DNA of 64,000 nucleotides. Source: an uncultured virus (IMG/VR IMGVR_UViG_3300045240_000158) (taxonomy: Duplodnaviria > Heunggongvirae > Uroviricota > Caudoviricetes). The notes under the pieces are model-generated. The model was not told where the DNA came from and did no database searches. It was given only the letters and a program-made list of their open reading frames with translations. Below are positions 52,530 to 62,252 of this stretch, one piece after another. Position 1 is the stretch's first letter, and each line of letters starts with the position of its first letter. Where the stretch lies: the IMG/VR virus record IMGVR_UViG_3300045240_000158; one strand, 5' to 3'. Both the position numbers and the translations under genes were made by a program.

Positions 52530-52883
52530 ATGACGATCGATGACTTACTCAACGAGGAGCCTGACGGGCCAGAACCTGTCGCGCCTCCTTGGCACGTCCA
52601 TTCCAACGCGTGCCTGCACGGCTGGATCATTGGAGGCACCGAGTGGGGCACATGCGACTGCGAAGACCCGGCGAATCCGTGGCCTCCGCGCGTTCCTGGC
52701 GATGGCCCGATAGACTGCCAGTGCTACGCCTGCGAAGGCCACAAGCCGCGGTGGGAGCGCGGCAAGCTCGCAGGGTGCGAGTACAAAGATCACCACTGCG
52801 AGGACTGCCACGCGCATCGACGCTGCACGATCCCGGAGTGCGGCTTCGCGAGTTCATTGACAAGCGCGCCCTCGTCGCGCTAG
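52530..52883 (+). CDS. Cys/His-rich hypothetical protein
   Basis: GAGG RBS; multiple CxC and CxxC motifs. Confidence 0.6.
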   Translation: MTIDDLLNEEPDGPEPVAPPWHVHSNACLHGWIIGGTEWGTCDCEDPANPWPPRVPGDGPIDCQCYACEGHKPRWERGKLAGCEYKDHHCEDCHAHRRCTIPECGFASSLTSAPSSR

Positions 52884-52886
52884 CCT
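52857..52886 (+). promoter_or_regulatory. sigma70-type promoter for the tRNA array
   Basis: TTGACA (52857-62)-N18-TAGCCT (52881-86). Confidence 0.65.
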
Positions 52887-52902
52887 TCCTCTTGTAGAGC
52901 CC

Positions 52903-53076
52903 ATGTCGATCTCGCGCGTATCCACGACAGTCACCAGGCGCCAAGGCGTCGTGGGACACGTGTGCGCGCGTCACGATTGGACCTGCCAGGCGAACTTCGT
53001 CGGCCAGGGGACCGTCGTGGGTATCAAGCGCGAGCCGCAGCCCACGACCTACGAAGGGAAGGCTCCAGACGCATAG
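52903..53076 (+). CDS. putative 57-aa leader (attenuator) peptide
   Basis: ATG..TAG just downstream of the promoter; codon-diverse, no Leu; 3' end complementary to the terminator 5' arm. Confidence 0.6.
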   Translation: MSISRVSTTVTRRQGVVGHVCARHDWTCQANFVGQGTVVGIKREPQPTTYEGKAPDA

Positions 53077-53104
53077 AACAGGCTGAAACAGCCGAAGCGA
53101 TCTG

Positions 53105-53147
53105 GAGCCGCCCTGGAGAAAACCCTCCTCGGCGGCTTTCTCGTTTT
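53105..53147 (+). terminator. intrinsic terminator/attenuator before the first tRNA
   Basis: GAGCCGCC/GGCGGCTT stem with inner GGAG/CTCC, then TCTCGTTTT. Confidence 0.65.
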
Positions 53148-53148
53148 C

Positions 53149-53234
53149 GGGCGCGCAGTCCGGCGTGGCTCCGGGCGTGGCTGTAACCCACGCGTGCTTT
53201 GCGCACCGTCTCGGTTCGATTCCGAGCGCGCCCA
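53149..53234 (+). tRNA. tRNA-Tyr(GTA), atypical D-arm
   Basis: Acceptor GGGCGCG/CGCGCCC; loop ctGTAac; variable arm; TTCGA. Confidence 0.75.
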
Positions 53235-53288
53235 CGAAAGGAAAGTGATGACGAAGAAGCTCAAACGCTCGACCACGAAACCCATCCT

Positions 53289-53360
53289 GGGCTCGTGGCG
53301 TAACGGCAGCGCACGCGGCTTTTAACCGCTGAGGTGGGGGTTCAAATCCCTCCGGGCTCA
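53289..53360 (+). tRNA. tRNA-Lys(TTT)
   Basis: Cloverleaf; ctTTTaa. Confidence 0.85.
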
Positions 53361-53369
53361 CGAAATCGA

Positions 53370-53440
53370 TCAGGGGTCGTCTAATGGTAGGACGCGAGAT
53401 TCTGGATCTCGCTATATGGGTTCGATTCCTATCCCCTGAA
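53370..53440 (+). tRNA. tRNA-Gln(CTG)
   Basis: Cloverleaf; ttCTGga. Confidence 0.9.
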
Positions 53441-53588
53441 CCGCGGCCGACTGCATCGCGCGTGAATCGACGGTCCCCCGAGCAACAGCGCTCACAGTGG
53501 GATGACAGCGACACGGCGAGACGGGGCAGATGACAACTGAATAGTTGACGACGATGACGCGAGCGCGGCATGTAGCGCGCTCGCAAGC

Positions 53589-53661
53589 GCCACTCTTGCG
53601 TAGATGGTCTGCGCGCTCGGCTGAAGCCCGGGAGGTTCTGGTTCGATTCCAGAGGGTGGCA
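53589..53661 (+). tRNA. tRNA-Phe(GAA)
   Basis: Cloverleaf; ctGAAgc. Confidence 0.85.
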
Positions 53662-53698
53662 CGTTGTCAGAGGCAGCTGACATGATGAGCATGTCGCC

Positions 53699-54181
53699 AT
53701 GCAGCGCACGTGCGAAACTTGCCAGGATACGTTCGAGGCCAAACCGTGCAAGGTTGCACAGGGCAAAGGAAGATTTTGCTCGATGAAGTGCTTTGGAAAA
53801 AGCCAACTTCAAGGGCAGTGGGTCCGCTGTCACGTATGCCCAAAGAAGATTTGGCGATCCCCGTGGCAATTTCGTCACTCGAAGACTAAGACTTTCTTCT
53901 GTGGCCCGAAGTGCCGTAGTCAGTGGAATGAAAAAGTAATGCCTGCCGGTGAGCAGCATCATCTTTGGAAAGGAGGCTATCGTTCTTATAGACGACGGGC
54001 TATTAAGCATTATGGCGCGCGATGTTCAAACCTGGCTTGTCCGATTCCGAGGTCGCGGATGTCTACAAAGATGCTTGATGTAGATCACATCGACGGAAAT
54101 CGCCAAAACAACCGTCTAAAAAATCTTCGCGTTTTGTGCGTTTGGTGTCATGCCGAATGCACACGAGCCTCTTGGAAATAG
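53699..54181 (+). CDS. HNH homing-type endonuclease with CxxC...FC zinc repeats
   Basis: LDVDHIDGNRQNNRLKNLRVLCVWCH; AT-richer than flanks. Confidence 0.85.
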   Translation: MQRTCETCQDTFEAKPCKVAQGKGRFCSMKCFGKSQLQGQWVRCHVCPKKIWRSPWQFRHSKTKTFFCGPKCRSQWNEKVMPAGEQHHLWKGGYRSYRRRAIKHYGARCSNLACPIPRSRMSTKMLDVDHIDGNRQNNRLKNLRVLCVWCHAECTRASWK

Positions 54182-54224
54182 TCTTTCGCCTTTCGCGTTT
54201 GGTTTTTGTTCGTTAGGTGCCTTC

Positions 54225-54354
54225 GCCGGAAAAGCCACGTGGTGTGGCACTTCTCTATCAAAGAAGCAAATTCCCAGCTTCGATAACTCGTCGCGCACGC
54301 GCGACATCCTTCGATGCTCACAAGCAAAGGTCGGTTCGACTCCGACTTCCGGCG
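54225..54354 (+). ncRNA. tRNA-Asp(ATC)-like RNA with 58-nt variable-region insertion
   Basis: Acceptor GCCGGAA/TTCCGGC, G73; D-arm; CTTCT-ctATCaa-AGAAG; T-arm GTCGG-TTCGACT-CCGAC. Confidence 0.75.
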
Positions 54355-54386
54355 CGATGAAGGACTGCATTCCTTCAGATTTTTCT

Positions 54387-54519
54387 GGGCGAAGATGCTC
54401 CACGGTGGGGCACTTGACTATGGATCAAGCAAACAACCGACAACAACACTCGCCTCGCTCGCGTGGCATCCGTTGCGTGTCTACAAGCAAAGTCGGTTCG
54501 ACTCCGGCCTTCGCCCCCA
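54387..54519 (+). ncRNA. tRNA-His(ATG)-like RNA with 58-nt variable-region insertion
   Basis: G-1:C73, encoded CCA; CTTGA-ctATGga-TCAAG; T-arm GTCGG-TTCGACT-CCGGC. Confidence 0.75.
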
Positions 54520-54530
54520 ATTATCTAATC

Positions 54531-54602
54531 GTCTCCGTAGCTCTAATGTAGAGCAGCCGGTTCTTACCCGGACGCGTGTTGGTTCAAGTCCAACCGGGGG
54601 CA
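54531..54602 (+). tRNA. tRNA-Lys(CTT)
   Basis: Cloverleaf; ttCTTac. Confidence 0.75.
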
Positions 54603-54611
54603 CTGCATGAT

Positions 54612-54683
54612 CGAGGTGTGCGCCTAACGGTAAGGGACGTGGTTTGGGACCATGGGATGCAGGTTCGACTCCTGTCACCTCGA
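54612..54683 (+). tRNA. tRNA-Pro(TGG)
   Basis: Cloverleaf; ttTGGga. Confidence 0.85.
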
Positions 54684-54780
54684 CGAAATGCAGTGGCGCC
54701 CCGAGCGTCCTGCCCGGCGCTCAGCCGGCGAACGATGAAGCACGGCTCTCAGGCCGTCGCCGAGCTGACTCGGGAGATCT

Positions 54781-54852
54781 GCGGGTGAGGCGGCTTGGTG
54801 CCGCGCCAGCTTGCCAAGCTGGTTTAGGTGGGATCGTTCCCCACCATCCGCT
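54781..54852 (+). tRNA. tRNA-Gly(GCC)
   Basis: ttGCCaa; U73; variant T-loop. Confidence 0.8.
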
Positions 54853-54857
54853 CGACT

Positions 54858-54929
54858 GCTGCTGTAGCATAAGGGTAATGCAGCCGCCTCGTAAGCGGCA
54901 GACTGTCGGTTCAATTCCGACCAGCAGCT
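54858..54929 (+). tRNA. tRNA-Thr(CGT)
   Basis: Cloverleaf; ctCGTaa. Confidence 0.9.
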
Positions 54930-54936
54930 CGACGAC

Positions 54937-55012
54937 GCTACTGTAGCTCAGCTGGCAGAGCGCCTGATTTGTAATCAGGATGTCCCGAGTTCAATTCTCG
55001 GCGGTAGCTCCA
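54937..55012 (+). tRNA. tRNA-Thr(TGT)
   Basis: Cloverleaf; ttTGTaa; encoded CCA. Confidence 0.92.
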
Positions 55013-55022
55013 AGATCGTTAT

Positions 55023-55103
55023 TCCGAGGTAGCCTAGTGGCAAGGCACGCGGCTGTTAACCGCGCGTGGAAACACATCGCAGGTTCGATCCCTGCCCTCG
55101 GAG
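55023..55103 (+). tRNA. tRNA-Asn(GTT) with long variable arm
   Basis: ctGTTaa; extra GTG-GAAA-CAC hairpin. Confidence 0.85.
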
Positions 55104-55112
55104 CTGCTTCAA

Positions 55113-55184
55113 GCGAACGCGGTGTGATGGTCGCATGCGGGCCTTCCAAGCCCTGCGGTGAGGGTTCGAGTCCCTTCGTTCGCT
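55113..55184 (+). tRNA. tRNA-Gly(TCC)
   Basis: ctTCCaa; U73. Confidence 0.85.
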
Positions 55185-55191
55185 CGATGAT

Positions 55192-55263
55192 GCGCGCGTA
55201 GTTCAGCAGCAGAACGCTCGCTCGACACGCGAGAGGCCGCAGGTGCGATCCCTGCCGCGCGCA
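55192..55263 (+). tRNA. tRNA-Val(GAC)
   Basis: tcGACac (C33). Confidence 0.8.
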
Positions 55264-55326
55264 CGAAGGCTCGTGACTGGGTGGAACACCACCGCAGCGT
55301 TTGGACCTTTCACGAGCCATCAACAT

Positions 55327-55400
55327 GTCGCTCTCGTCCAGTGGCCTAGGACGCTCGCCTCTCAAGCGGGAAACGTCGGGTTCGACTCCCACGAGCGACG
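55327..55400 (+). tRNA. tRNA-Glu(CTC)
   Basis: ctCTCaa. Confidence 0.88.
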
Positions 55401-55408
55401 CTCTCTTT

Positions 55409-55481
55409 GACTCCGTCTTCTAATGGATCAGGATCTGAGATTACGAATCTCAGGATGGTGGTTCGAGTCCACCCGGAGTCA
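55409..55481 (+). tRNA. tRNA-Arg(ACG)
   Basis: ttACGaa. Confidence 0.88.
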
Positions 55482-55556
55482 CTAGCGGCTCTCGTGCACG
55501 TGGGCGGCTCGCGATGGTCACCGTTGCGATGACCGGTGCGCGCGGGCCCTGTTTCT

Positions 55557-55626
55557 AGGGCGCGCGAGATGGTCTCGGCATGGTCTCCAAAGCCGTTGCG
55601 ATCGGGTTCAATTCCTGAGCGTCCTG
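55557..55626 (+). tRNA. tRNA-Trp(CCA), short D-arm
   Basis: ctCCAaa; G73. Confidence 0.75.
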
Positions 55627-55630
55627 CTTA

Positions 55631-55707
55631 CGTGGTCTTGGCCTCGCGGATGACGAACGCGGGGAGGTAGCCAAAGAGGAAACGGGTGCAAGTCCCGTAG
55701 ACCACGC
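55631..55707 (+). ncRNA. tRNA-like element (acceptor + T-arm, no normal D/anticodon arms)
   Basis: CGTGGTCT/AGACCACG; ACGGG-TGCAAGT-CCCGT. Confidence 0.5.
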
Positions 55708-55710
55708 CTT

Positions 55711-55782
55711 CGCAGCGACCAGTGGATCTGGACGACGGCTTCATAAGCCGTGCGGGGTACGGTTCGAGTCCGTCCGTTGCGA
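55711..55782 (+). tRNA. tRNA-Met/Ile2(CAT)
   Basis: ttCATaa; atypical D-arm. Confidence 0.75.
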
Positions 55783-55794
55783 CGATACGATTAA

Positions 55795-55866
55795 CGGGGT
55801 GTAGCGAAGCGGTATCGCGCTGCGTTCGGGACGCAGAGATCGTGAGTTCGATCCTCACCACCCCGA
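55795..55866 (+). tRNA. tRNA-Pro(CGG)
   Basis: ttCGGga. Confidence 0.9.
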
Positions 55867-55877
55867 CGATGTTTTAT

Positions 55878-55973
55878 GCCGCGTGCGCGTGAGAGCGCTG
55901 CCCGTTCGAGGAGCAATCCAGGAGGTGCACCTCTGTATTCGACGGACATCGTGGTGAGAGCCCACGTGCGGCA
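55878..55973 (+). ncRNA. tRNA-like element with enlarged central domain
   Basis: GCCGCGT/GTGCGGC-A, D-like GCGC/GCGC, T-like GTGG/CCAC. Confidence 0.45.
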
Positions 55974-55983
55974 CTTTTGACAC

Positions 55984-56056
55984 GGAGGACAGTTCACCTG
56001 GAGGTGATGGCGCCCTTACAAGACGCTCGCGGTCGGTCCGATTCCGACGTCCTCTA
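55984..56056 (+). tRNA. tRNA-Val(TAC), degenerate
   Basis: ctTACaa; mismatched anticodon stem. Confidence 0.65.
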
Positions 56057-56062
56057 CTTCAT

Positions 56063-56134
56063 CCGCCTGTAGCTCAGCAGCAGAGCGCTCGCTTGATAAG
56101 CGAGAGGTCGTTGGTGCAATACCAACCAGGCGGA
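56063..56134 (+). tRNA. tRNA-Ile(GAT)
   Basis: ttGATaa. Confidence 0.85.
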
Positions 56135-56145
56135 CGTACGTCGAC

Positions 56146-56216
56146 GATGCCGTAGCACAACGTAGTGCGGTCGCCCTATAAGCGAAAGGTTGGCGGTTCA
56201 AGTCCGCCCGGCATCA
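56146..56216 (+). tRNA. tRNA-Ile(TAT)
   Basis: ccTATaa loop (C33); A73. Confidence 0.7.
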
Positions 56217-56222
56217 CGATCT

Positions 56223-56299
56223 GGTGTACGTAGCCATCTGGTGATGGCGGTGGGTTGTGGACCCACTCCAGGCGAGTTCGATCCTCGTCGTGCACCCCA
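56223..56299 (+). tRNA. tRNA-His(GTG)
   Basis: G-1:C73; ttGTGga; encoded CCA. Confidence 0.9.
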
Positions 56300-56302
56300 A
56301 CT

Positions 56303-56374
56303 CGAGCAGTGGCGAAGTGGCATCGCGCACGGTCGGGGACCGTGAGATCGCAGGTTCGATCCCTGTCTGCTCGA
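56303..56374 (+). tRNA. tRNA-Pro(GGG)
   Basis: tcGGGga. Confidence 0.85.
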
Positions 56375-56446
56375 CGAAAGGAGGTCCGGTTGTCAGATCC
56401 GAGCCGGGCGAAGCGTCATAGGATCAACGAAGGAGCACATCACGCC

Positions 56447-56989
56447 ATGGAGCCGACACATAGTAGGACCCTCGTCCTGAGCCAGAGCTACGAACCCATC
56501 AACATTGTCTCGGTGCAGCGGGCGATCACGCTCCTGTTCCTTGGCAAGGTCGAGGTGATCGAGGAGTACGACGGCAACGTCAAGACGATCTCCGCGATCT
56601 TCAAGACGCCGGCCGTCGTGAGGCTCCTGAATGCGTTCCGCCGTCACAAGAAGGCCGTGAAGTTCTCGCGCGTGAACATCTACGGCCGCGACAAGTACAC
56701 CTGCCAGTATTGCGGCACGAAGAAGAAGTCGATCAGCGAGCTGACGTACGATCACGTCGTGCCGCGGTCGCGTGGCGGCAAGACGGTGTGGACCAACATC
56801 GCGACGTGCTGCTCGGACTGCAACCGCAAGAAGGCGAACCGCACGCCCGCCGAAGCTGGCATGAAGCTTCTCAAGGAGCCCGTGCAGCCGACAGCCACGC
56901 CCGTACTGATCCTTACGATCAGCAAGGAGTCGACGCCGGACGCGTGGCGCGACTACCTGTACTGGACGGCCGAGCTGGAGCAGGAGTAG
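56447..56989 (+). CDS. HNH endonuclease (McrA-like)
   Basis: AAGGAG RBS; LVLSQSYEP; RDKYTCQYCG; TYDHVVPRSRGG; CSDCNRKK. Confidence 0.9.
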   Translation: MEPTHSRTLVLSQSYEPINIVSVQRAITLLFLGKVEVIEEYDGNVKTISAIFKTPAVVRLLNAFRRHKKAVKFSRVNIYGRDKYTCQYCGTKKKSISELTYDHVVPRSRGGKTVWTNIATCCSDCNRKKANRTPAEAGMKLLKEPVQPTATPVLILTISKESTPDAWRDYLYWTAELEQE

Positions 56990-57100
56990 GTCGTGCGGCT
57001 CGTGCGAAGGTGGATCGCGATAGCGCGCTTCGAGATCGAGCAGTGGAAGTTGCGCTTCTGGTGGTAGCTCGTGCGAGTGCGCGGCAACGCGCTCGCATTT

Positions 57101-57174
57101 GGGAACGTAGGAGAGTTGGAGTCTCCGCCGGCCTGTCACGCCGGAGATCGCGGGTTCAAGTCCCGTCGTTCCCG
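57101..57174 (+). tRNA. tRNA-Asp(GTC)
   Basis: ctGTCac; G73. Confidence 0.92.
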
Positions 57175-57188
57175 CTCGAAGATCTAAA

Positions 57189-57257
57189 GGGCTCGCCATC
57201 GGGATGGCACACCGCCTCGCACGCGGAGTTGTGGGAGTTCAACTCTCCCCGGGTCCA
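57189..57257 (+). tRNA. tRNA-Ala(CGC), short D-arm
   Basis: ctCGCac; G3:U70. Confidence 0.75.
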
Positions 57258-57258
57258 C

Positions 57259-57330
57259 GGGTTCGTAGCTCAACAGGAGAGCAGCGCGATGGCATCGCGA
57301 AGGCTGAGGGTGCGATTCCCTTCGGATCCA
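57259..57330 (+). tRNA. tRNA-Ala(GGC)
   Basis: atGGCat; G3:U70. Confidence 0.8.
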
Positions 57331-57335
57331 CGATT

Positions 57336-57408
57336 GGGGAGGAATGTTCCAAGGGGGCGAGCTGGATTTGCAATCCGGCTGCGGCCGGTTCGATTCCGGT
57401 CCTCTCCA
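57336..57408 (+). tRNA. tRNA-Ala(TGC)
   Basis: ttTGCaa; G3:U70. Confidence 0.8.
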
Positions 57409-57415
57409 CGCAACT

Positions 57416-57490
57416 GCCGTCAAGGTGCCCGGAGTTTCGGCACGCTCGCTTGGTACGCGGGAGGGCTCGGTGCGACTCCGAGTGGCGGCT
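57416..57490 (+). tRNA. tRNA-Thr(GGT)
   Basis: ttGGTac; variant T-loop. Confidence 0.75.
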
Positions 57491-57499
57491 CGAAGATGA

Positions 57500-57570
57500 T
57501 CAGGGGTCGTCTAATGGCAGGACGCGCGATTTTGGATCGCGCTATAAGGGTTCGATTCCTTTCCCCTGAA
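57500..57570 (+). tRNA. tRNA-Gln(TTG)
   Basis: ttTTGga; near-copy of tRNA at 53370. Confidence 0.9.
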
Positions 57571-57574
57571 CCGC

Positions 57575-57646
57575 GCATCGGTAGCCAAGTGGCCAAGGCA
57601 CGGAGCTGCAACCTCCGCAACGCGAGTTCGATTCTCGCCCGATGCT
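57575..57646 (+). tRNA. tRNA-Cys(GCA)
   Basis: ctGCAac; U73. Confidence 0.88.
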
Positions 57647-57828
57647 CTACGTGCGCCGACGTCGTCTCGCGCGCATCGCGTGTCGAGCGAACAACGCGGA
57701 CCATTGCTGGGCCGCGAGGTACTGATCGACCGTCATGAAACAGCGCGCTGCCTCGGCCTGGAGCACGAGCAGCTCGTCATCGCGGCGATCGCGCTCGGCG
57801 GTGCGCTTCATCGCATCGACGGTAGCAC

Positions 57829-57902
57829 GCTCCTGAAGTCCCATTGGAAGGGGCACCCGTTTTCTAAACGGACCGTTGGAGGTTCGAGCCCTCTCAGGAG
57901 CA
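57829..57902 (+). tRNA. tRNA-Arg(TCT)
   Basis: ttTCTaa. Confidence 0.8.
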
Positions 57903-57931
57903 CTAGGAGTCACGAGATGTGGACACGTTCC

Positions 57932-58004
57932 GGTCCCGTAGCCTAGTGGATGAGGCGCGCGTTTCCTAAACGCGCTCACGCAGGTTCGACCCCTGCCGGG
58001 ATCA
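57932..58004 (+). tRNA. tRNA-Arg(CCT)
   Basis: ttCCTaa. Confidence 0.9.
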
Positions 58005-58208
58005 CTTCTTCTGCGCGGCAGCGTCGGAACGCGCGCAAGCGATCGTTGTGCTCGTAGGTGTAGTCGAGGATCGTACAGTTGCCGATCGGATCGCGTTGCT
58101 TCGCGTCAGCGCGAGGCACGCAGTGACGACCGCAGCTGCACTTCGGCAACTTCCGACGGCGGCGCGATCGACTCACGTCTTCATCGTAGCATCGTCGTCG
58201 ACTATCAC

Positions 58209-58276
58209 GCCTCCGTACGTGGACGTGACCCGAGTTTCCGAAACTCGGAGAGCCGGTTCGAGTCCGGCCGGAGGCA
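58209..58276 (+). tRNA. tRNA-Arg(CCG), reduced D-arm
   Basis: ttCCGaa. Confidence 0.75.
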
Positions 58277-58282
58277 CGCAAC

Positions 58283-58356
58283 GCTCTCGTCGTCTACTTT
58301 GGTTAGGACCGTCGATTTTCACTCGATCAAAGCGAGTTCGATCCTCGCCGAGAGCA
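58283..58356 (+). tRNA. tRNA-Glu(TTC)
   Basis: ttTTCac. Confidence 0.88.
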
Positions 58357-58361
58357 CGTCC

Positions 58362-58550: not shown

Positions 58551-58650
58551 GCGCTTGTATAGCGTCGTCTAGCGCGTGCTGTCAATCGAGCGAAGCGATC
58601 ACGATCGTGATCGCGGGATTGACGCCGCTTGCGAATGGATATACAAACGC
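58551..58650. promoter_or_regulatory. divergent sigma70-like promoters with an inverted operator pair
   Basis: + strand TTGACG-N17-TACAAA; - strand TTGACA-N18-TATACA; GCGCTTGTAT/ATACAAACGC. Confidence 0.5.
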
Positions 58651-58676
58651 TAGCGTTGAATGCAGGAGGGTTTGCG

Positions 58677-60572
58677 ATGACGACAGCAGAGAAGTTGGGG
58701 CCAGCGGAGAAGATCCTCCAGACGCTCCTGAACCACACGGACCACATGGTCCACAACCGGCCCGGCATGGTGACGGCGGACGCGCGACACACGATCGGCG
58801 TGCGTTGGGTGCCCGTCACGCACAAGGAGGAGAACGGTTCCAAGGTCGTCTACGAGCTGACGAAGGTCGGCAAGAAGACGAACAAGATCCGCAAGGGCGT
58901 GATGCGCGCCGACGGAAAGGTCGAGGAGAACGGCAAGGTCGTCGGCGAGTACCGCGCCCCTGGCCTCTTCCCCGAGGTCGCCGCGTGGATGTATCGCCAG
59001 GTCGCCGAGGTCTGGAAGATGGACAACGAGTTCGCAGCCCGTTGGGCTTCGTACTCGTTCGGCCAGGAGCATCGTGACCTCAAGGTCGTGCTCGCAGCGT
59101 TCATGCTCGTGCAGACGCGCAAGGGAGACCCCGTGCTCGATAGCGGCAAGGTCGCGTTCTACGACGACGACTTCCGTGACATCGGCGAGGCGATGGTGCT
59201 CATCCATCGCCGGGACGGCAAGGATCTGAACCCGAAGCTTCTGCTCCGCGTTCACGACCTCCTGAAGCTGCCCGGCGTTGCGGCTATCAACCGCGAGCTC
59301 GGATTCGGCAACTCCGCTCGGCGTCCCTTCCTTGGCCGCTGGGGCAAGGCGGTCGAGAAGTGGCTCCAGTTTCGCGAGGAGAACCCCAAGATGCTCGACG
59401 GTCTCGTCAAGGCCGGCTTCAAGAGCACCGTGAAGGATCTCGCGCGGGCGGTCGGCTACAAGCCCGAGACCCCGAAGTTCTTCGAGGCACTCGCTTGGGC
59501 GCAGGATCAGTCCAAGGACGGCCGGCGCCAGATGCTCATCGGCGTCGAGCTGGTCAAGGCCGAGACCTGGGACGAGCTGACCGAGGCGCAGATCTGCGAG
59601 AAGATCGTCGCCGAGAAGCCGGACTGGAAGCGCATCGTCGGCATGCTGCCGAAGAAGCTCGGTGTCACGCGCGCCATCATGAGCGCGGCGGTCGAGTCGA
59701 ACGCGCTGTCCAACAAGGATCTGATCATCCTCACGCCCACGCTCGAGGAGCTGGGACTGTTGGAGGTCAAGGAGGTCAAGGCGAAGTGGGATCGGGCTCT
59801 GAAGAAGGCCGAGGACGACATGCGTGCGGCGAACATCGCGCGCAACGTGAAGTCCAAGGACGTCCAGGAGCAGCTCGTCGCTGCGGCGGACACCGCTCTC
59901 CAGAAGGCCGTCGATCAGGTGACGAAGAACCTCCGGATCTACGTCATCATCGACGTCTCGGGCTCGATGGGGCAGTCCATCGAGAAGGCGAAGATGCTCC
60001 TGGGCAAGTTCCTCCAGGGCTTCCCGCCTGATCGCACGCATGTCGCCGTGTTCAACACGACCGGGCGCGTGGTCGAGATCAAGCACGCCTCCGCGGCCGG
60101 TGTTGCGAACGCCTTCAAGGGCATCTCGGCAGATGGCGGTACGGCCCACGGTGCTGGTGTCCTCGCGCTGGAGAAGTTCCAGCCCAAGGACGACGAGGAT
60201 TCGCTGTTCATCTTCATCGGTGACGGCGGCGAGCAGCGGACGTTCGAGACCTACGTGACGCGGTCCAAGCTGCGTCCCATGGCCTTCGGCTTCCTCAAGC
60301 TGCCGGGGGAGAACTTCGGCTGCATCGAGAGCACGGCCGCGGCTCTCGGTATCCCGTGCTTCCCGATCGTCGAGAACACGTTCGACGACGTCTACGCGAT
60401 CCCGCGGACCATCCGCGCGCTCGTGGCGGCGACACCAGTCGGTGCGGTGGCCCGTGCGGCGGTGGCGCCTCGTGTGACGCTCGTCGATACGATCCTCAAG
60501 ACCGATCTGCTCAAGAAGCCTGCGTGGGCCTTCTCGGCCCGCGCACCCGCTCCGGCGGTTGCGACGGCGTAA
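58677..60572 (+). CDS. VWA-domain protein with large helical N-domain (TROVE/Ro60-like architecture)
   Basis: AGGAGG RBS; MIDAS IIDVSGSM, GGT, FIGDG. Confidence 0.8.
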   Translation: MTTAEKLGPAEKILQTLLNHTDHMVHNRPGMVTADARHTIGVRWVPVTHKEENGSKVVYELTKVGKKTNKIRKGVMRADGKVEENGKVVGEYRAPGLFPEVAAWMYRQVAEVWKMDNEFAARWASYSFGQEHRDLKVVLAAFMLVQTRKGDPVLDSGKVAFYDDDFRDIGEAMVLIHRRDGKDLNPKLLLRVHDLLKLPGVAAINRELGFGNSARRPFLGRWGKAVEKWLQFREENPKMLDGLVKAGFKSTVKDLARAVGYKPETPKFFEALAWAQDQSKDGRRQMLIGVELVKAETWDELTEAQICEKIVAEKPDWKRIVGMLPKKLGVTRAIMSAAVESNALSNKDLIILTPTLEELGLLEVKEVKAKWDRALKKAEDDMRAANIARNVKSKDVQEQLVAAADTALQKAVDQVTKNLRIYVIIDVSGSMGQSIEKAKMLLGKFLQGFPPDRTHVAVFNTTGRVVEIKHASAAGVANAFKGISADGGTAHGAGVLALEKFQPKDDEDSLFIFIGDGGEQRTFETYVTRSKLRPMAFGFLKLPGENFGCIESTAAALGIPCFPIVENTFDDVYAIPRTIRALVAATPVGAVARAAVAPRVTLVDTILKTDLLKKPAWAFSARAPAPAVATA

Positions 60573-61670: not shown

Positions 61671-62252
61671 ATGAAGTTCTCGGACATCAAGCTCACGGAC
61701 ATCGGCAACACGATCCAGATGGTCGGCGTCGTCTACACCGACTCGAATGGCAAGGCGTTCTACTTCCCGTTTCCGTCGGCCGGCGACGAGGGCAAGGATC
61801 CGACGCGCGTCGAGATGACCAACGAGGACTGGAAGACAATGCTCCGTCAGGCGGACCTCGTCGAGACCGAGGTGCTCGCTCAGCGTAAGGACGGCGAGCT
61901 GTACAAGGTCATCGCGCGCAAGTCGCAACGCCAGGTCGACACGCAGGTCCAGTGGAACGTCTACCGCCGGGACAACTTCATGTGTCGCTATTGCGGCACC
62001 GAGAAGCTGCCGCTCACGGTCGATCACCTCGTACGTTGGGAAGACGGCGGCCCGACGATCGAAGATAACCTCGTCGCAGCCTGCCGAAAGTGCAACAAGG
62101 TCCGTGGCGACACCGCCTACGCGGCGTGGCTCCGGCACCCCTACTACGTCGAGGTCTCGCAGAAGGTCTCGTACGCCTACCAGGAGCTGAACCGGCGCAT
62201 CGCCGACACGCTCGTCAACATCCCCCGCACGCCTGTCGTGAAGGACCGTTAG
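61671..62252 (+). CDS. HNH endonuclease domain protein
   Basis: RDNFMCRYCG, LTVDHL, GG, NLVAACRKCN. Confidence 0.85.
   Translation: MKFSDIKLTDIGNTIQMVGVVYTDSNGKAFYFPFPSAGDEGKDPTRVEMTNEDWKTMLRQADLVETEVLAQRKDGELYKVIARKSQRQVDTQVQWNVYRRDNFMCRYCGTEKLPLTVDHLVRWEDGGPTIEDNLVAACRKCNKVRGDTAYAAWLRHPYYVEVSQKVSYAYQELNRRIADTLVNIPRTPVVKDR

What the first reader, a model, noticed from the sequence alone, without database searches (positions are those of the whole stretch)
52857..53147. Pan-codon leader-peptide attenuator controlling a 33-tRNA array
Seen, in order: (1) a TTGACA-N18-TAGCCT promoter; (2) an unlisted 57-codon ORF at 52903-53076 (MSISRVSTTVTRRQGVVGHVCARHDWTCQANFVGQGTVVGIKREPQPTTYEGKAPDA); (3) a terminator hairpin plus U-tract at 53105-53147, 1 nt before the first tRNA. 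GGCTCCAGA (53061-69, last codons) is the exact reverse complement of TCTGGAGCC (53101-09), which overlaps the terminator 5' arm; AGGG/CCCT extends the pairing. The two helices are mutually exclusive. The peptide contains every amino acid except Leu, with Ser only in the first 7 residues, and I find no Leu or Ser tRNA in the array. Its synonymous codons mirror the array isoacceptors despite the GC bias: Thr ACG/ACA/ACC, Pro CCG/CCC/CCA, Ala GCG/GCT/GCA, Gln CAA/CAG, Glu GAG/GAA, Val GTA/GTC/GTG, all four Gly, Arg CGC/CGT/AGG. Known: trp/his-type attenuators sense one amino acid by ribosome stalling. Inference: a ribosome reaching the stop masks the antiterminator and termination occurs, while stalling at almost any codon (tRNA depletion, anticodon nucleases) allows read-through into a backup tRNA set. 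This would be a general tRNA-pool sensor.
Basis: partly seen in the sequence, partly recalled or inferred. Interest (0 to 1): 0.92.

Follow-up and report, generated by a model that had tools for sequence, protein, structure and literature searches.

The report
Translated leader switch before phage tRNAs
A giant soil phage and its relatives begin their roughly 33-gene tRNA cluster with a conserved promoter, a small reading frame that is kept open while its peptide drifts, and an RNA fold that should stop transcription only when a ribosome reaches the frame's end, which looks like a gauge of translation health controlling tRNA supply.

Summary
All of them recur in 13 of 13 related metagenome loci (10 distinct sequences), always directly before a syntenic tRNA array that starts with tRNA-Tyr.

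The ORF is very likely translated. ATG and stop are kept in 11/11 sequences, and all six indels inside it are multiples of 3, while spacers after the stop vary by 1-4 nt. It is not conserved as a protein: pN/pS is 0.63 overall and 1.24 in codons 2-11, and AlphaFold finds no fold. Synonymous sites are 2-4 times more conserved than in flanking genes, so RNA-level constraint dominates.

In 11/11 homologs, folding gives the same switch. When the last codons are free, helix A forms and the terminator stem is cut back from the U tract. When a ribosome sits at the stop, the full terminator forms.

My best reading (about 0.5) is a ribosome-dependent attenuator that senses general translation stress, closest in logic to the mycobacterial whiB7 uORF.

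The "pan-codon / no-Leu" layer is weak. Leu occurs in 5/11 homologs, and amino-acid diversity is ordinary.

No function has been shown. My literature searches found no such control of tRNA genes. Earlier notes of this scan describe the same family on other DNA.

The parts
52857..52886 (+). Promoter: -35 TTGACA (52857-62), 18-nt spacer, -10 TAGCCT (52881-86). Relatives have TTGACT-N17-TAGCAT or TAGCGT.
   Evidence: The -35 is kept in 10/10 loci that reach it and the -10 TAGCNT in 11/11, while the spacer and upstream sequence vary. The transcription start is inferred about 7-9 nt downstream (around 52893-95) and is not measured.
52903..53076 (+). Leader ORF of 57 codons, ATG to TAG, with no Shine-Dalgarno motif and a roughly 9-nt inferred 5' UTR.
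   Evidence: The ORF is intact in 11/11 sequences with lengths 156-180 nt, all multiples of 3. There are 15 protein homologs. pN/pS is 0.63 and pS is 0.23, against 0.52-0.53 in flanking genes. GC3 is 0.79.
52937..52950 (+). 5' hairpin GGCGC-CAAG-GCGUC inside the ORF (codons 12-16). It is a possible pause or folding element.
   Evidence: 100% of cells are paired. A C-G to U-A double change in L004 and L012 is accompanied by the amino-acid changes R>C and V>T.
53052..53062 (+). Purine tract (codons 50-53) that forms the outer stem of a three-way junction with the U-rich tract 53136-53149.
   Evidence: MFE. The pair 53058:53140 is G-C in 7 rows and A-U in 4, so the synonymous GGG/GGA change covaries with C/T. 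96-100% of cells are paired.
53061..53072 (+). Region 2: the 5' strand of helix A (antiterminator), covering the last four codons of the ORF and ending 2 nt before the stop codon.
   Evidence: Exact complement of 53101-09. It is invariant in 11/11 sequences, including the A/T-ending codons GCT and CCA. Helix A forms in the unconstrained fold of 10/11 homologs (shortened in L012, 0.4 kcal/mol from the full form).
53081..53093 (+). Small hairpin capping helix A.
   Evidence: The closing pair takes four pair types (GU, AU, GC, CG). L011 has a different sequence that still forms a hairpin.
53097..53109 (+). Region 3: the 3' strand of helix A. Positions 53104-09 are also the base of the terminator's 5' arm.
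   Evidence: The core is invariant apart from one T>C in L011. In L008, L015 and L011 three substitutions re-form the helix extension in a shifted register.
53104..53147 (+). Intrinsic-terminator-like element: 9 outer and 4 inner base pairs (53104-53139) plus the U-rich tract 53137-53147.
   Evidence: -23 kcal/mol. Stem pairs covary: GCCGCC/GGCGGC, GCCTCC/GGAGGC and GCCACC/GGTGGT. It is the only strong hairpin next to a T-rich tract in 64 kb.
53149..58357 (+). The controlled tRNA array: 29 ARAGORN tRNAs plus about 3-4 more, interrupted by HNH endonuclease genes. It starts with tRNA-Tyr(GTA).
   Evidence: The same gene order (Tyr-Lys-Gln-Phe-Lys-Pro-Gly-Thr-Thr-Asn...) is found in the related loci.

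Best explanation
This is a ribosome-dependent transcription attenuator at the head of the phage tRNA operon.

**Proposed mechanism**
- A sigma-70/sigma-A-type promoter starts a transcript whose first roughly 250 nt carry a 52-60 codon ORF.
- The last four codons of the ORF (region 2) pair with a segment 25 nt past the stop (region 3). That segment is also the base of a strong terminator hairpin lying directly before tRNA-Tyr.
- If a ribosome follows RNA polymerase closely and sits on the last codons or the stop, region 2 is covered. The full 9+4 bp terminator then forms against the U tract and transcription ends.
- If no ribosome arrives in time (slow decoding, stalling before about codon 49, poor initiation), helix A forms first. 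The terminator stem is then pulled 3-6 nt away from the U tract, polymerase runs into the tRNA genes, and the purine tract later locks the U tract into a three-way junction.
- The net logic is: healthy translation means few phage tRNAs; impaired translation means more.

**Shown**
- The anatomy, its conservation, frame selection, RNA-level constraint, and the thermodynamic switch in all homologs.

**Inferred**
- The transcription start, translation, termination efficiency, ribosome footprint geometry, and the physiological signal.
For: - **Conserved unit.** The leader is followed by tRNA-Tyr in 13/13 metagenome loci: 12 by ARAGORN and 1 truncated contig seen by eye. Contigs reach up to 461 kb.
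- **Promoter.** The hexamers are conserved amid variable flanks.
- **Frame selection.** ATG is kept in 11/11. The stop is kept in 11/11, as TAG in 10 and TAA in L011. All six indels inside the ORF (3, 3, 3, 6, 6 and 18 nt) are multiples of 3. The two non-coding spacers vary over 21-24 nt and 35-39 nt.
- **Product not constrained.** pN/pS is 1.24 in codons 2-11 and 0.63 overall, against 0.26-0.33 in two flanking genes. AlphaFold gives pLDDT 53 and no secondary structure.
- **RNA-level constraint.** pS is 0.23 overall and 0.12 in the last 20 codons, against 0.52-0.53 in the flanking genes.
- **Structure.** 94.7% of cells are paired, against 41-50% when the partners are slid. Covariation is seen in the terminator, the outer stem and the 5' hairpin.
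- **Switch.** The predicted switch is reproduced in 11/11 homologs.
- **Unique terminator.** It is the only canonical terminator-like site in the 64 kb.
- **Geometry.** The stop-to-tRNA distance is held at 67-72 nt.
- **Precedent for the logic.** In the whiB7 uORF attenuator, efficient translation forms the terminator, and depletion of amino acids, tRNAs or synthetases induces expression (passages of bioRxiv 10.1101/2023.06.02.543512).
Against: - There is no Shine-Dalgarno motif, and the inferred 5' UTR is only about 9 nt.
- The core of helix A never varies, so covariation cannot test it.
- The RNAalifold consensus did not choose helix A. It preferred an extended terminator and a GAGCC:GGCTC pairing.
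- The overlap with the terminator is partial, at 6 of 9 outer positions. A 3+4 or 5+4 bp hairpin coexists with helix A, and in the full-length MFE both sit in one three-way junction.
- The U tract is itself under pairing constraint (53058:53140), so it may exist for structure rather than for termination.
- RNase P cleavage at 53148/53149 would produce nearly the same 3' end as termination.
- No conserved 1:2 helix or pause element was found.
- No run of regulatory codons is present.
- No experimental data bear on any step.
Confidence: 0.5

Rival explanations
1. The element is a constitutive structured 5' leader. The three-way junction, including the "terminator", is an architectural or processing element of the tRNA precursor. 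It could keep the leader from interfering with tRNA-Tyr folding, define the RNase P site, or stabilise the released leader. The ORF is translated, but this has no regulatory consequence.
For: - The full-length MFE is a single three-way junction that abuts the first nucleotide of tRNA-Tyr.
- The covariation 53058:53140 supports the outer stem that sequesters the U tract.
- An RNA-library contig of a relative spans 53035-53233, across the hairpin and into tRNA-Tyr. This is a contig only, and DNA carry-over is not excluded.
Against: - It does not explain why the reading frame is preserved by indels that are all multiples of 3, nor why the ORF's end is placed exactly on one strand of the junction.
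- A hairpin of -23 kcal/mol touching a U-rich tract is the textbook intrinsic-terminator signal, and it is unique in the 64 kb.
Confidence: 0.2
2. This is an ordinary small protein gene with its own promoter and a leaky terminator. The peptide, with its conserved C-terminal GIKREPQPTTYEGKAPDA, is the functional product, and the tRNAs are made by passive read-through.
For: - There are 15 protein homologs with a nearly invariant C-terminal half.
- pN/pS is 0.26-0.36 in codons 12-26 and 41 to the end.
- The frame is conserved.
Against: - Synonymous sites in the conserved half are also frozen (pS 0.12 against 0.52 in neighbouring genes). Amino-acid conservation there can therefore be a by-product of RNA constraint.
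- The compensatory RNA change in the 5' hairpin is bought with the radical amino-acid changes R>C and V>T.
- The N-terminus evolves at pN/pS 1.24.
- No fold is predicted: pLDDT 53.
- There is no Pfam or PHROG match.
Confidence: 0.12
3. Antitermination is factor-dependent. The terminator blocks tRNA transcription until a phage or host factor (a protein, a small molecule or an uncharged tRNA) binds the conserved leader RNA. The ORF is incidental or auxiliary.
For: - The strong nucleotide-level invariance of 53020-53060 is explained neither by a covarying helix nor by protein selection. Five lineages carry uncompensated mismatches in the window's predicted 53014-22:53040-48 hairpin.
- The leader is highly structured, with z = -4.6.
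Against: - No Rfam family (T-box, riboswitch or other) matches 52900-53148 at E <= 1.
- It does not explain frame conservation.
Confidence: 0.1
4. The element is a purely non-coding RNA. The ORF is an accident of 65% GC sequence and is not translated.
For: - There is no Shine-Dalgarno motif.
- Variable sites are spread almost evenly over codon positions: 21, 23 and 28 of 60.
- Other frames, including the antisense frame, are also open in many or all homologs.
Against: - Six of six indels in the ORF are multiples of 3, against spacer lengths differing by 1-4 nt after the stop.
- ATG is invariant, and the stop is kept through a TAG>TAA change.
- A further relative in a sequencing run has a net -3 change.
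- Sense-frame GC3 is 0.79, whereas the antisense frame would have GC3 of 0.60.
Confidence: 0.08

Closest known systems
whiB7 uORF-mediated transcription attenuator of mycobacteria and other actinobacteria
   Same: - Both have a long, compositionally diverse uORF rather than a run of one codon.
- In both, efficient uORF translation lets a Rho-independent terminator form, and impaired translation (amino-acid, tRNA or synthetase depletion, or ribosome inhibitors) gives an antiterminator and read-through. I read this in passages of bioRxiv 10.1101/2023.06.02.543512.
- The peptide sequence varies between species while the frame is kept.
   Different: - The regulated genes here are about 33 tRNAs of a phage, not a transcription factor.
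- There is no alanine enrichment.
- Here the antiterminator strand lies in the ORF's last four codons, and a third stem ties the U tract into a three-way junction.
- Sequence homology to whiB7 leaders was not tested.
Leader-peptide attenuators of amino-acid operons (trpL, hisL, and the multivalent thrL and ilvL); features recalled from textbook knowledge
   Same: - Both are arranged as promoter, short ORF, alternative 2:3 / 3:4 helices, then the regulated genes.
- In both, a ribosome at the stop favours the terminator.
- The stop-to-termination distance is about 70 nt, similar to trpL (recalled).
   Different: - There are no tandem regulatory codons.
- No conserved 1:2 helix is present. It appeared only in the RNAalifold consensus and in 1 of 11 single-sequence folds, so the untranslated default is probably read-through rather than super-attenuation.
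- The ORF is 3-4 times longer.
- The overlap with the terminator arm is only partial.
- The output is tRNAs rather than biosynthetic enzymes.
T-box riboswitches
   Same: Both are leader RNAs with a terminator/antiterminator choice that report on tRNA status.
   Different: - T-boxes bind one uncharged tRNA directly and need no translation.
- There is no T-box match in Rfam here.
- This leader carries a frame-conserved ORF.

Membership tests
Ribosome-dependent (leader-peptide/uORF) transcription attenuator | Short ORF between the promoter and the regulated genes, with evidence that it is translated | tested here: inconclusive
   The ORF is present in 11/11 sequences and its frame is preserved by six indels that are all multiples of 3. 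However, there is no Shine-Dalgarno motif and there are no ribosome data.
Ribosome-dependent (leader-peptide/uORF) transcription attenuator | Intrinsic terminator between the ORF and the regulated genes | tested here: met
   The hairpin is -23 kcal/mol, covaries, and directly abuts the U-rich tract 1 nt before tRNA-Tyr. This is met at the sequence level only; termination was not measured.
Ribosome-dependent (leader-peptide/uORF) transcription attenuator | Antiterminator helix that competes with the terminator's 5' arm | tested here: met
   The 9-bp helix A overlaps 6 of the 9 outer terminator positions. In the unconstrained fold of 10/11 homologs (near-isoenergetic in L012) it forms and leaves only 3 outer base pairs, 3-6 nt from the U tract. 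The overlap is partial, and the helix core is invariant, so there is no covariation test.
Ribosome-dependent (leader-peptide/uORF) transcription attenuator | ORF positioned so that a terminating ribosome masks the antiterminator strand | tested here: met
   Region 2 (53061-72) ends 2 nt before the stop codon in 11/11 sequences. Masking 53056-88 gives the full terminator in 11/11. The footprint size is taken from general knowledge.
Ribosome-dependent (leader-peptide/uORF) transcription attenuator | Read-through responds to translation of the ORF | not testable with these tools
   This needs reporter or in vitro assays.
Classical amino-acid-operon attenuator (trp/his type) | Clustered codons for the regulating amino acid | tested here: not met
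   There are 36 distinct codons among the 57, with no run of any single codon.
Classical amino-acid-operon attenuator (trp/his type) | Region 1:2 anti-antiterminator / pause hairpin | tested here: not met
   The partner of region 2 before region 3 emerges is inconsistent across the 11 homologs. GAGCC:GGCTC appears only in the RNAalifold consensus and in 1 single-sequence fold.
T-box riboswitch | Match to the T-box covariance model (Stem I, T-box bulge) | tested here: not met
   No Rfam match lies in 52900-53148 at E <= 1.
whiB7-type uORF attenuator | Sequence or structural homology to whiB7 leaders, with a whiB7 gene downstream | not tested
   The downstream genes are tRNAs. Only the logic is shared.

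The most novel reading that the evidence does not exclude
A family of huge soil and sediment phages runs a closed feedback loop on translation capacity. A codon-diverse test ORF (34-38 different codons among 51-59) is read by the infected cell's ribosomes. Any slowdown, whether from host tRNA decay, anticodon-nuclease defence, amino-acid starvation or a codon-usage mismatch, lets polymerase pass the attenuator. The phage's near-complete tRNA set is then made until decoding speed recovers. This would be the first transcription attenuator known to control tRNA genes, and a phage-encoded general sensor of tRNA-pool damage.
Probability: 0.3. Interest if true: 0.9.

Novelty: new variant of a known kind. 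Interest (0 to 1): 0.78.

Why it matters
Phage tRNA arrays are usually discussed as static codon-usage patches or as spares against host tRNA-cleaving defences. How they are switched on is essentially unstudied.

A translated leader that gauges decoding speed and gates about 33 tRNA genes would give these phages demand-driven control of their own translation supply. It would also extend ribosome-mediated attenuation, known from amino-acid operons and whiB7, to tRNA genes.

The element is compact (about 290 nt), conserved and easy to test with reporters. It could also serve as a natural, portable sensor of translation stress.

Five literature searches turned up no description of such control of tRNA genes. 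Unchecked earlier notes of this scan report the same family and analogous leaders in unrelated phages, which suggests a recurrent design.

Tried and rejected
**Searches for relatives that found nothing**
- INPHARED phages, blastn with 1 kb: no match.
- No whole genome is held for this window.
- IMG/VR with the ORF protein: 67 pattern hits, 0 relatives.
- IMG/VR with alignment A1: 8 hits, 0 relatives.
- IMG/VR with a tRNA-Tyr DNA pattern: 2 hits, both chance matches inside coding sequence.
- Genome contigs with A1: 17 hits, 0 relatives, so there is no host clue.
- The upstream Cys-rich gene found two IMG/VR relatives (L001, L002), but neither has tRNAs nearby.
- A search of the 461-kb record behind L013 for Leu/Ser tRNAs was not possible because the record is not held.

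**Generic scans**
- The generic promoter/terminator scan missed both elements. Its rules need 4 of 6 matches to TATAAT and an uninterrupted stem.

**Helices considered and dropped**
- The window's predicted hairpin 53014-22:53040-48 is rejected as a conserved helix, because five lineages carry uncompensated mismatches.
- A trp-like 1:2 helix was not found to be conserved.

**Tree**
- A tree to count independent covariation events was unresolved: 6 of 8 inner branches were open. The GGG/GGA-C/T covariation therefore reflects between 1 and 3 events.

**Sequencing runs (contigs only)**
- RNA-library contigs of relatives cover the ORF, mature-length tRNA-Tyr (two 88-nt records) and one piece bridging 53035-53233.
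- They cannot show starts, ends or strand, and DNA carry-over is possible.
- The uncovered stretch 53108-53141 in run X22 means nothing.

**Other**
- A PDB sequence search of the 647-aa protein after the array found no hit.
Full report
**What the window is.** The window is about 65% GC. Its genes lie almost all on one strand and include a helicase-like ATPase, a dual-specificity phosphatase, glycosyltransferase-like giants and several HNH endonucleases. It has no match in INPHARED and no genome is held for it. Related metagenome contigs reach 332 and 461 kb, so this is a huge-phage lineage from soil and sediment. I did not determine the host.

**Checking the observation.**
- The sequence shows TTGACA-N18-TAGCCT at 52857-52886.
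- A 57-codon ORF lies at 52903-53076, with exactly the quoted peptide.
- GGCTCCAGA at 53061-69 has its perfect reverse complement at 53101-09.
- An interrupted GC-rich hairpin (53104-53139, -23 kcal/mol) runs into TTTCTCGTTTT and ends 1 nt before tRNA-Tyr at 53149.
- ARAGORN finds 29 tRNAs between 53149 and 58357, none for Leu or Ser. It also makes an implausible permuted "tmRNA" call that overlaps eight tRNAs.
- Rfam and inspection add tRNA-Ala(GGC) at 57259-57330, a tRNA-Trp(CCA) homolog at 55556-55626, a probable CAT-anticodon tRNA near 55716-55790, and two odd tRNA-like genes. "33" is therefore about right.
- The generic consensus scan listed neither the promoter nor the terminator, and the promoter pattern alone is not significant, since 22 of 100 shuffles match.
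- Against that, the leader folds far better than shuffles (z = -4.6, 0 of 200 as good). Among only nine T-rich 11-mers in the whole 64 kb on both strands, this is the only one preceded by a strong adjacent hairpin.

**Conservation.**
- The ORF's peptide has 15 homologs among 15 candidates in the large protein collection (64-88% identity). The C-terminal half is almost invariant.
- A scan of metagenome contigs with that alignment gave 105 pattern hits, of which 13 encode a relative.
- In 12 of these 13 loci ARAGORN places tRNA-Tyr 71-78 nt after the match. It is followed by the same order of tRNAs as in the window. The thirteenth contig ends inside the tRNA-Tyr 5' end.
- Three loci are identical to L008 and one to L012 over the leader. 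This leaves 10 distinct sequences plus the window (alignment A2).
- The upstream neighbourhood is only partly syntenic. A minus-strand gene is shared by all loci, but the Cys-rich gene that abuts the promoter in the window is absent from the others.
- Even so, the -35 hexamer (10/10) and the -10 hexamer TAGCNT (11/11) are kept, with a 17-nt spacer of variable sequence. The promoter is therefore real by conservation.

**Is the ORF translated?**
- For translation:
  - ATG is kept in 11/11 sequences.
  - The stop is kept in 11/11, including one TAG>TAA change.
  - ORF lengths are 156, 168, 168, 171, 174 (five sequences), 177 and 180 nt.
  - All six indels (3, 3, 3, 6, 6 and 18 nt) are multiples of 3.
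  - The two non-coding spacers after the stop vary over 21-24 nt and 35-39 nt, so they are not constrained to multiples of 3.
  - A further relative seen in a sequencing run has a net -3 change.
  - Sense-frame GC3 is 0.79, as in real genes.
- Against translation:
  - There is no Shine-Dalgarno motif. The -10 to ATG distance of 16 nt implies a 5' UTR of only about 9 nt.
  - Other frames are often open in this GC-rich DNA.
- I take the frame to be under selection, so the ORF is translated. This is an inference.

**What is constrained?**
- Variable sites are spread almost evenly over codon positions: 21, 23 and 28 of 60.
- Pooled pairwise pN/pS is 0.63, and 1.24 in codons 2-11. Two flanking genes compared across the same loci give 0.26 and 0.33.
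- Synonymous divergence is only 0.23 overall and 0.12 in the last 20 codons, against 0.52-0.53 in those neighbours.
- A compensatory C-G to U-A change in the 5' hairpin costs R>C and V>T in the peptide.
- AlphaFold on the 16-sequence alignment gives pLDDT 53 and no secondary structure.
- There is no Pfam or PHROG match.
- The pattern is that the frame matters and the RNA matters, while the peptide largely does not. That is the signature of a regulatory uORF.

**The RNA.**
- In the window the 3' part folds into a three-way junction with three elements:
  - an outer stem, 53052-62 with 53136-49;
  - helix A, 53063-72 with 53097-107, capped by a small hairpin;
  - the terminator hairpin.
- On the alignment, 94.7% of cells pair, against 41-50% when the partners are slid by 1-3 columns. 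Compensatory changes occur in the terminator stem, the small hairpin, the 5' hairpin and the outer stem. In the outer stem, 53058:53140 is G-C in 7 rows and A-U in 4, so a synonymous GGG/GGA change tracks C/T in the "U tract".
- The tree is too poorly resolved to say whether that covariation reflects one event or three.
- The 9-bp core of helix A never varies, so it is neither supported nor contradicted by covariation. Its extension is re-formed in a shifted register by three substitutions in L008, L015 and L011.
- RNAalifold's own consensus preferred an extended terminator and paired GGCTC with GAGCC at 53032-36. Single-sequence folds truncated before region 3 show that pairing in only 1 of 11 homologs. 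I therefore do not accept a trp-like 1:2 helix.

**The switch.**
- Each of the 11 sequences was folded up to the start of the U tract.
- Unconstrained, 10 of 11 form the full helix A, which leaves a terminator with only 3 outer pairs whose base lies 3-6 nt from the U tract. In L012 the unconstrained fold keeps a shortened helix A beside a longer terminator stem, and the full-helix-A form is only 0.4 kcal/mol less stable.
- With 53056-53088 masked, as by a ribosome with the stop codon in its A site, all 11 form the full 8-9 pair stem touching the U tract.
- The overlap is partial, at 53104-09. The truncated hairpin keeps about half its stability (-11.7 against -23 kcal/mol). The expected effect is therefore a change in termination efficiency, not an all-or-none switch.
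- By footprint geometry (general knowledge), a ribosome stalled with its A site at or before about codon 49 leaves region 2 free.
- With no conserved 1:2 helix, an untranslated leader should default to read-through.

**The "pan-codon" layer.**
- Having 19 or 20 amino-acid types in 57 residues occurs in 14% of windows of this phage's own proteins. Lack of Leu occurs in 2%.
- Leu is present in 5 of the 11 homologous ORFs. One homolog lacks Asn and Trp, and another lacks Tyr.
- Because the array covers almost all codon families except Leu and Ser, "codons mirror isoacceptors" is nearly automatic.
- Two points stay mildly in favour:
  - 45-residue windows without Leu and Ser are rare (0.2%), although this test was chosen after seeing the data.
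  - Codon diversity (36 distinct codons, and 38 in six homologs) is in the top 1.5% and 0.3% of real-gene windows. Against a composition-matched random ORF, however, it gives only P = 0.12 and 0.025, as expected for a frame free of protein and codon-usage constraint.

**Comparison with what is known.**
- The logic matches ribosome-dependent attenuation.
- Among published systems the nearest is the whiB7 uORF. It is a long, diverse uORF whose efficient translation forms the terminator, and it is induced by depletion of amino acids, tRNAs and synthetases (passages of bioRxiv 10.1101/2023.06.02.543512).
- This element differs from trp/his-type leaders in having no codon run and no 1:2 helix.
- It differs from T-boxes, which give no Rfam match here.
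- Five literature searches found no attenuator or leader peptide described in front of tRNA genes (listings only; listing plus passages).
- Earlier unchecked notes of this scan describe the same family on another genome and analogous leaders in unrelated phages. One of them gave me the whiB7 comparison, and I reached the rest before reading them.

**Verdict.** The attenuator reading is the best-supported mechanism (about 0.5) but rests entirely on sequence analysis. The main alternatives are a constitutive structural or processing leader, a small protein gene with a leaky terminator, factor-dependent antitermination, and a purely non-coding RNA.

Noticed in passing
window 54387-54516 and 54320-54355: A 130-nt tRNA-like gene has a good acceptor stem, D arm and T arm but carries a 58-nt insertion in the anticodon/variable region (Rfam tRNA-Sec model, 32 bits, below threshold). 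A duplicated copy of its 3' half lies about 130 nt upstream, just after an HNH endonuclease gene. The element is about 97% conserved in related loci. It could be an intron-bearing or split tRNA, or possibly the missing long-arm (Leu/Ser-type) species.
   Followed up: partly
window 53699-54181, 56255-56989, 61671-62252: HNH homing-endonuclease genes are interspersed in and after the tRNA array. Their presence and positions differ between related loci, which suggests mobile insertions between tRNA genes.
   Followed up: partly
window 58629-60572 and 57209-57316: The first protein gene after the array (647 aa) has a VWA domain and a weak PHROG "RNA-binding protein" hit. A weak YrlA (Y RNA-like) Rfam hit (24 bits, E = 0.1) lies inside the array. 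A PDB sequence search gave no hit, so this is unverified.
   Followed up: partly
window 54594-55218: ARAGORN's permuted "tmRNA" call overlaps eight ordinary tRNA genes and has no Rfam support. It is almost certainly a false positive.
   Followed up: partly
window 55556-55626, 55632-55706, ~55716-55790, 57259-57330: ARAGORN misses several tRNA genes here: a Trp(CCA) homolog of the relatives' tRNA-Trp, an odd tRNA-like gene, a probable CAT-anticodon tRNA, and Ala(GGC) (Rfam, 53 bits).
   Followed up: partly
window 52530-52883: A Cys/His-rich 117-aa protein has its stop codon inside the leader promoter's -10 hexamer. It is absent from the 13 related loci but 62% identical to genes in two lower-GC IMG/VR huge-phage contigs that have no tRNA array nearby. 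It looks like a small gene inserted next to the promoter.
   Followed up: partly
window 53020-53060: Codons 40-52 of the leader are nearly invariant even at synonymous sites. Yet the hairpin predicted there in the window carries uncompensated mismatches in five lineages. What constrains this stretch is unexplained; candidates include a factor-binding site, codon identity or a nascent-peptide effect.
   Followed up: partly
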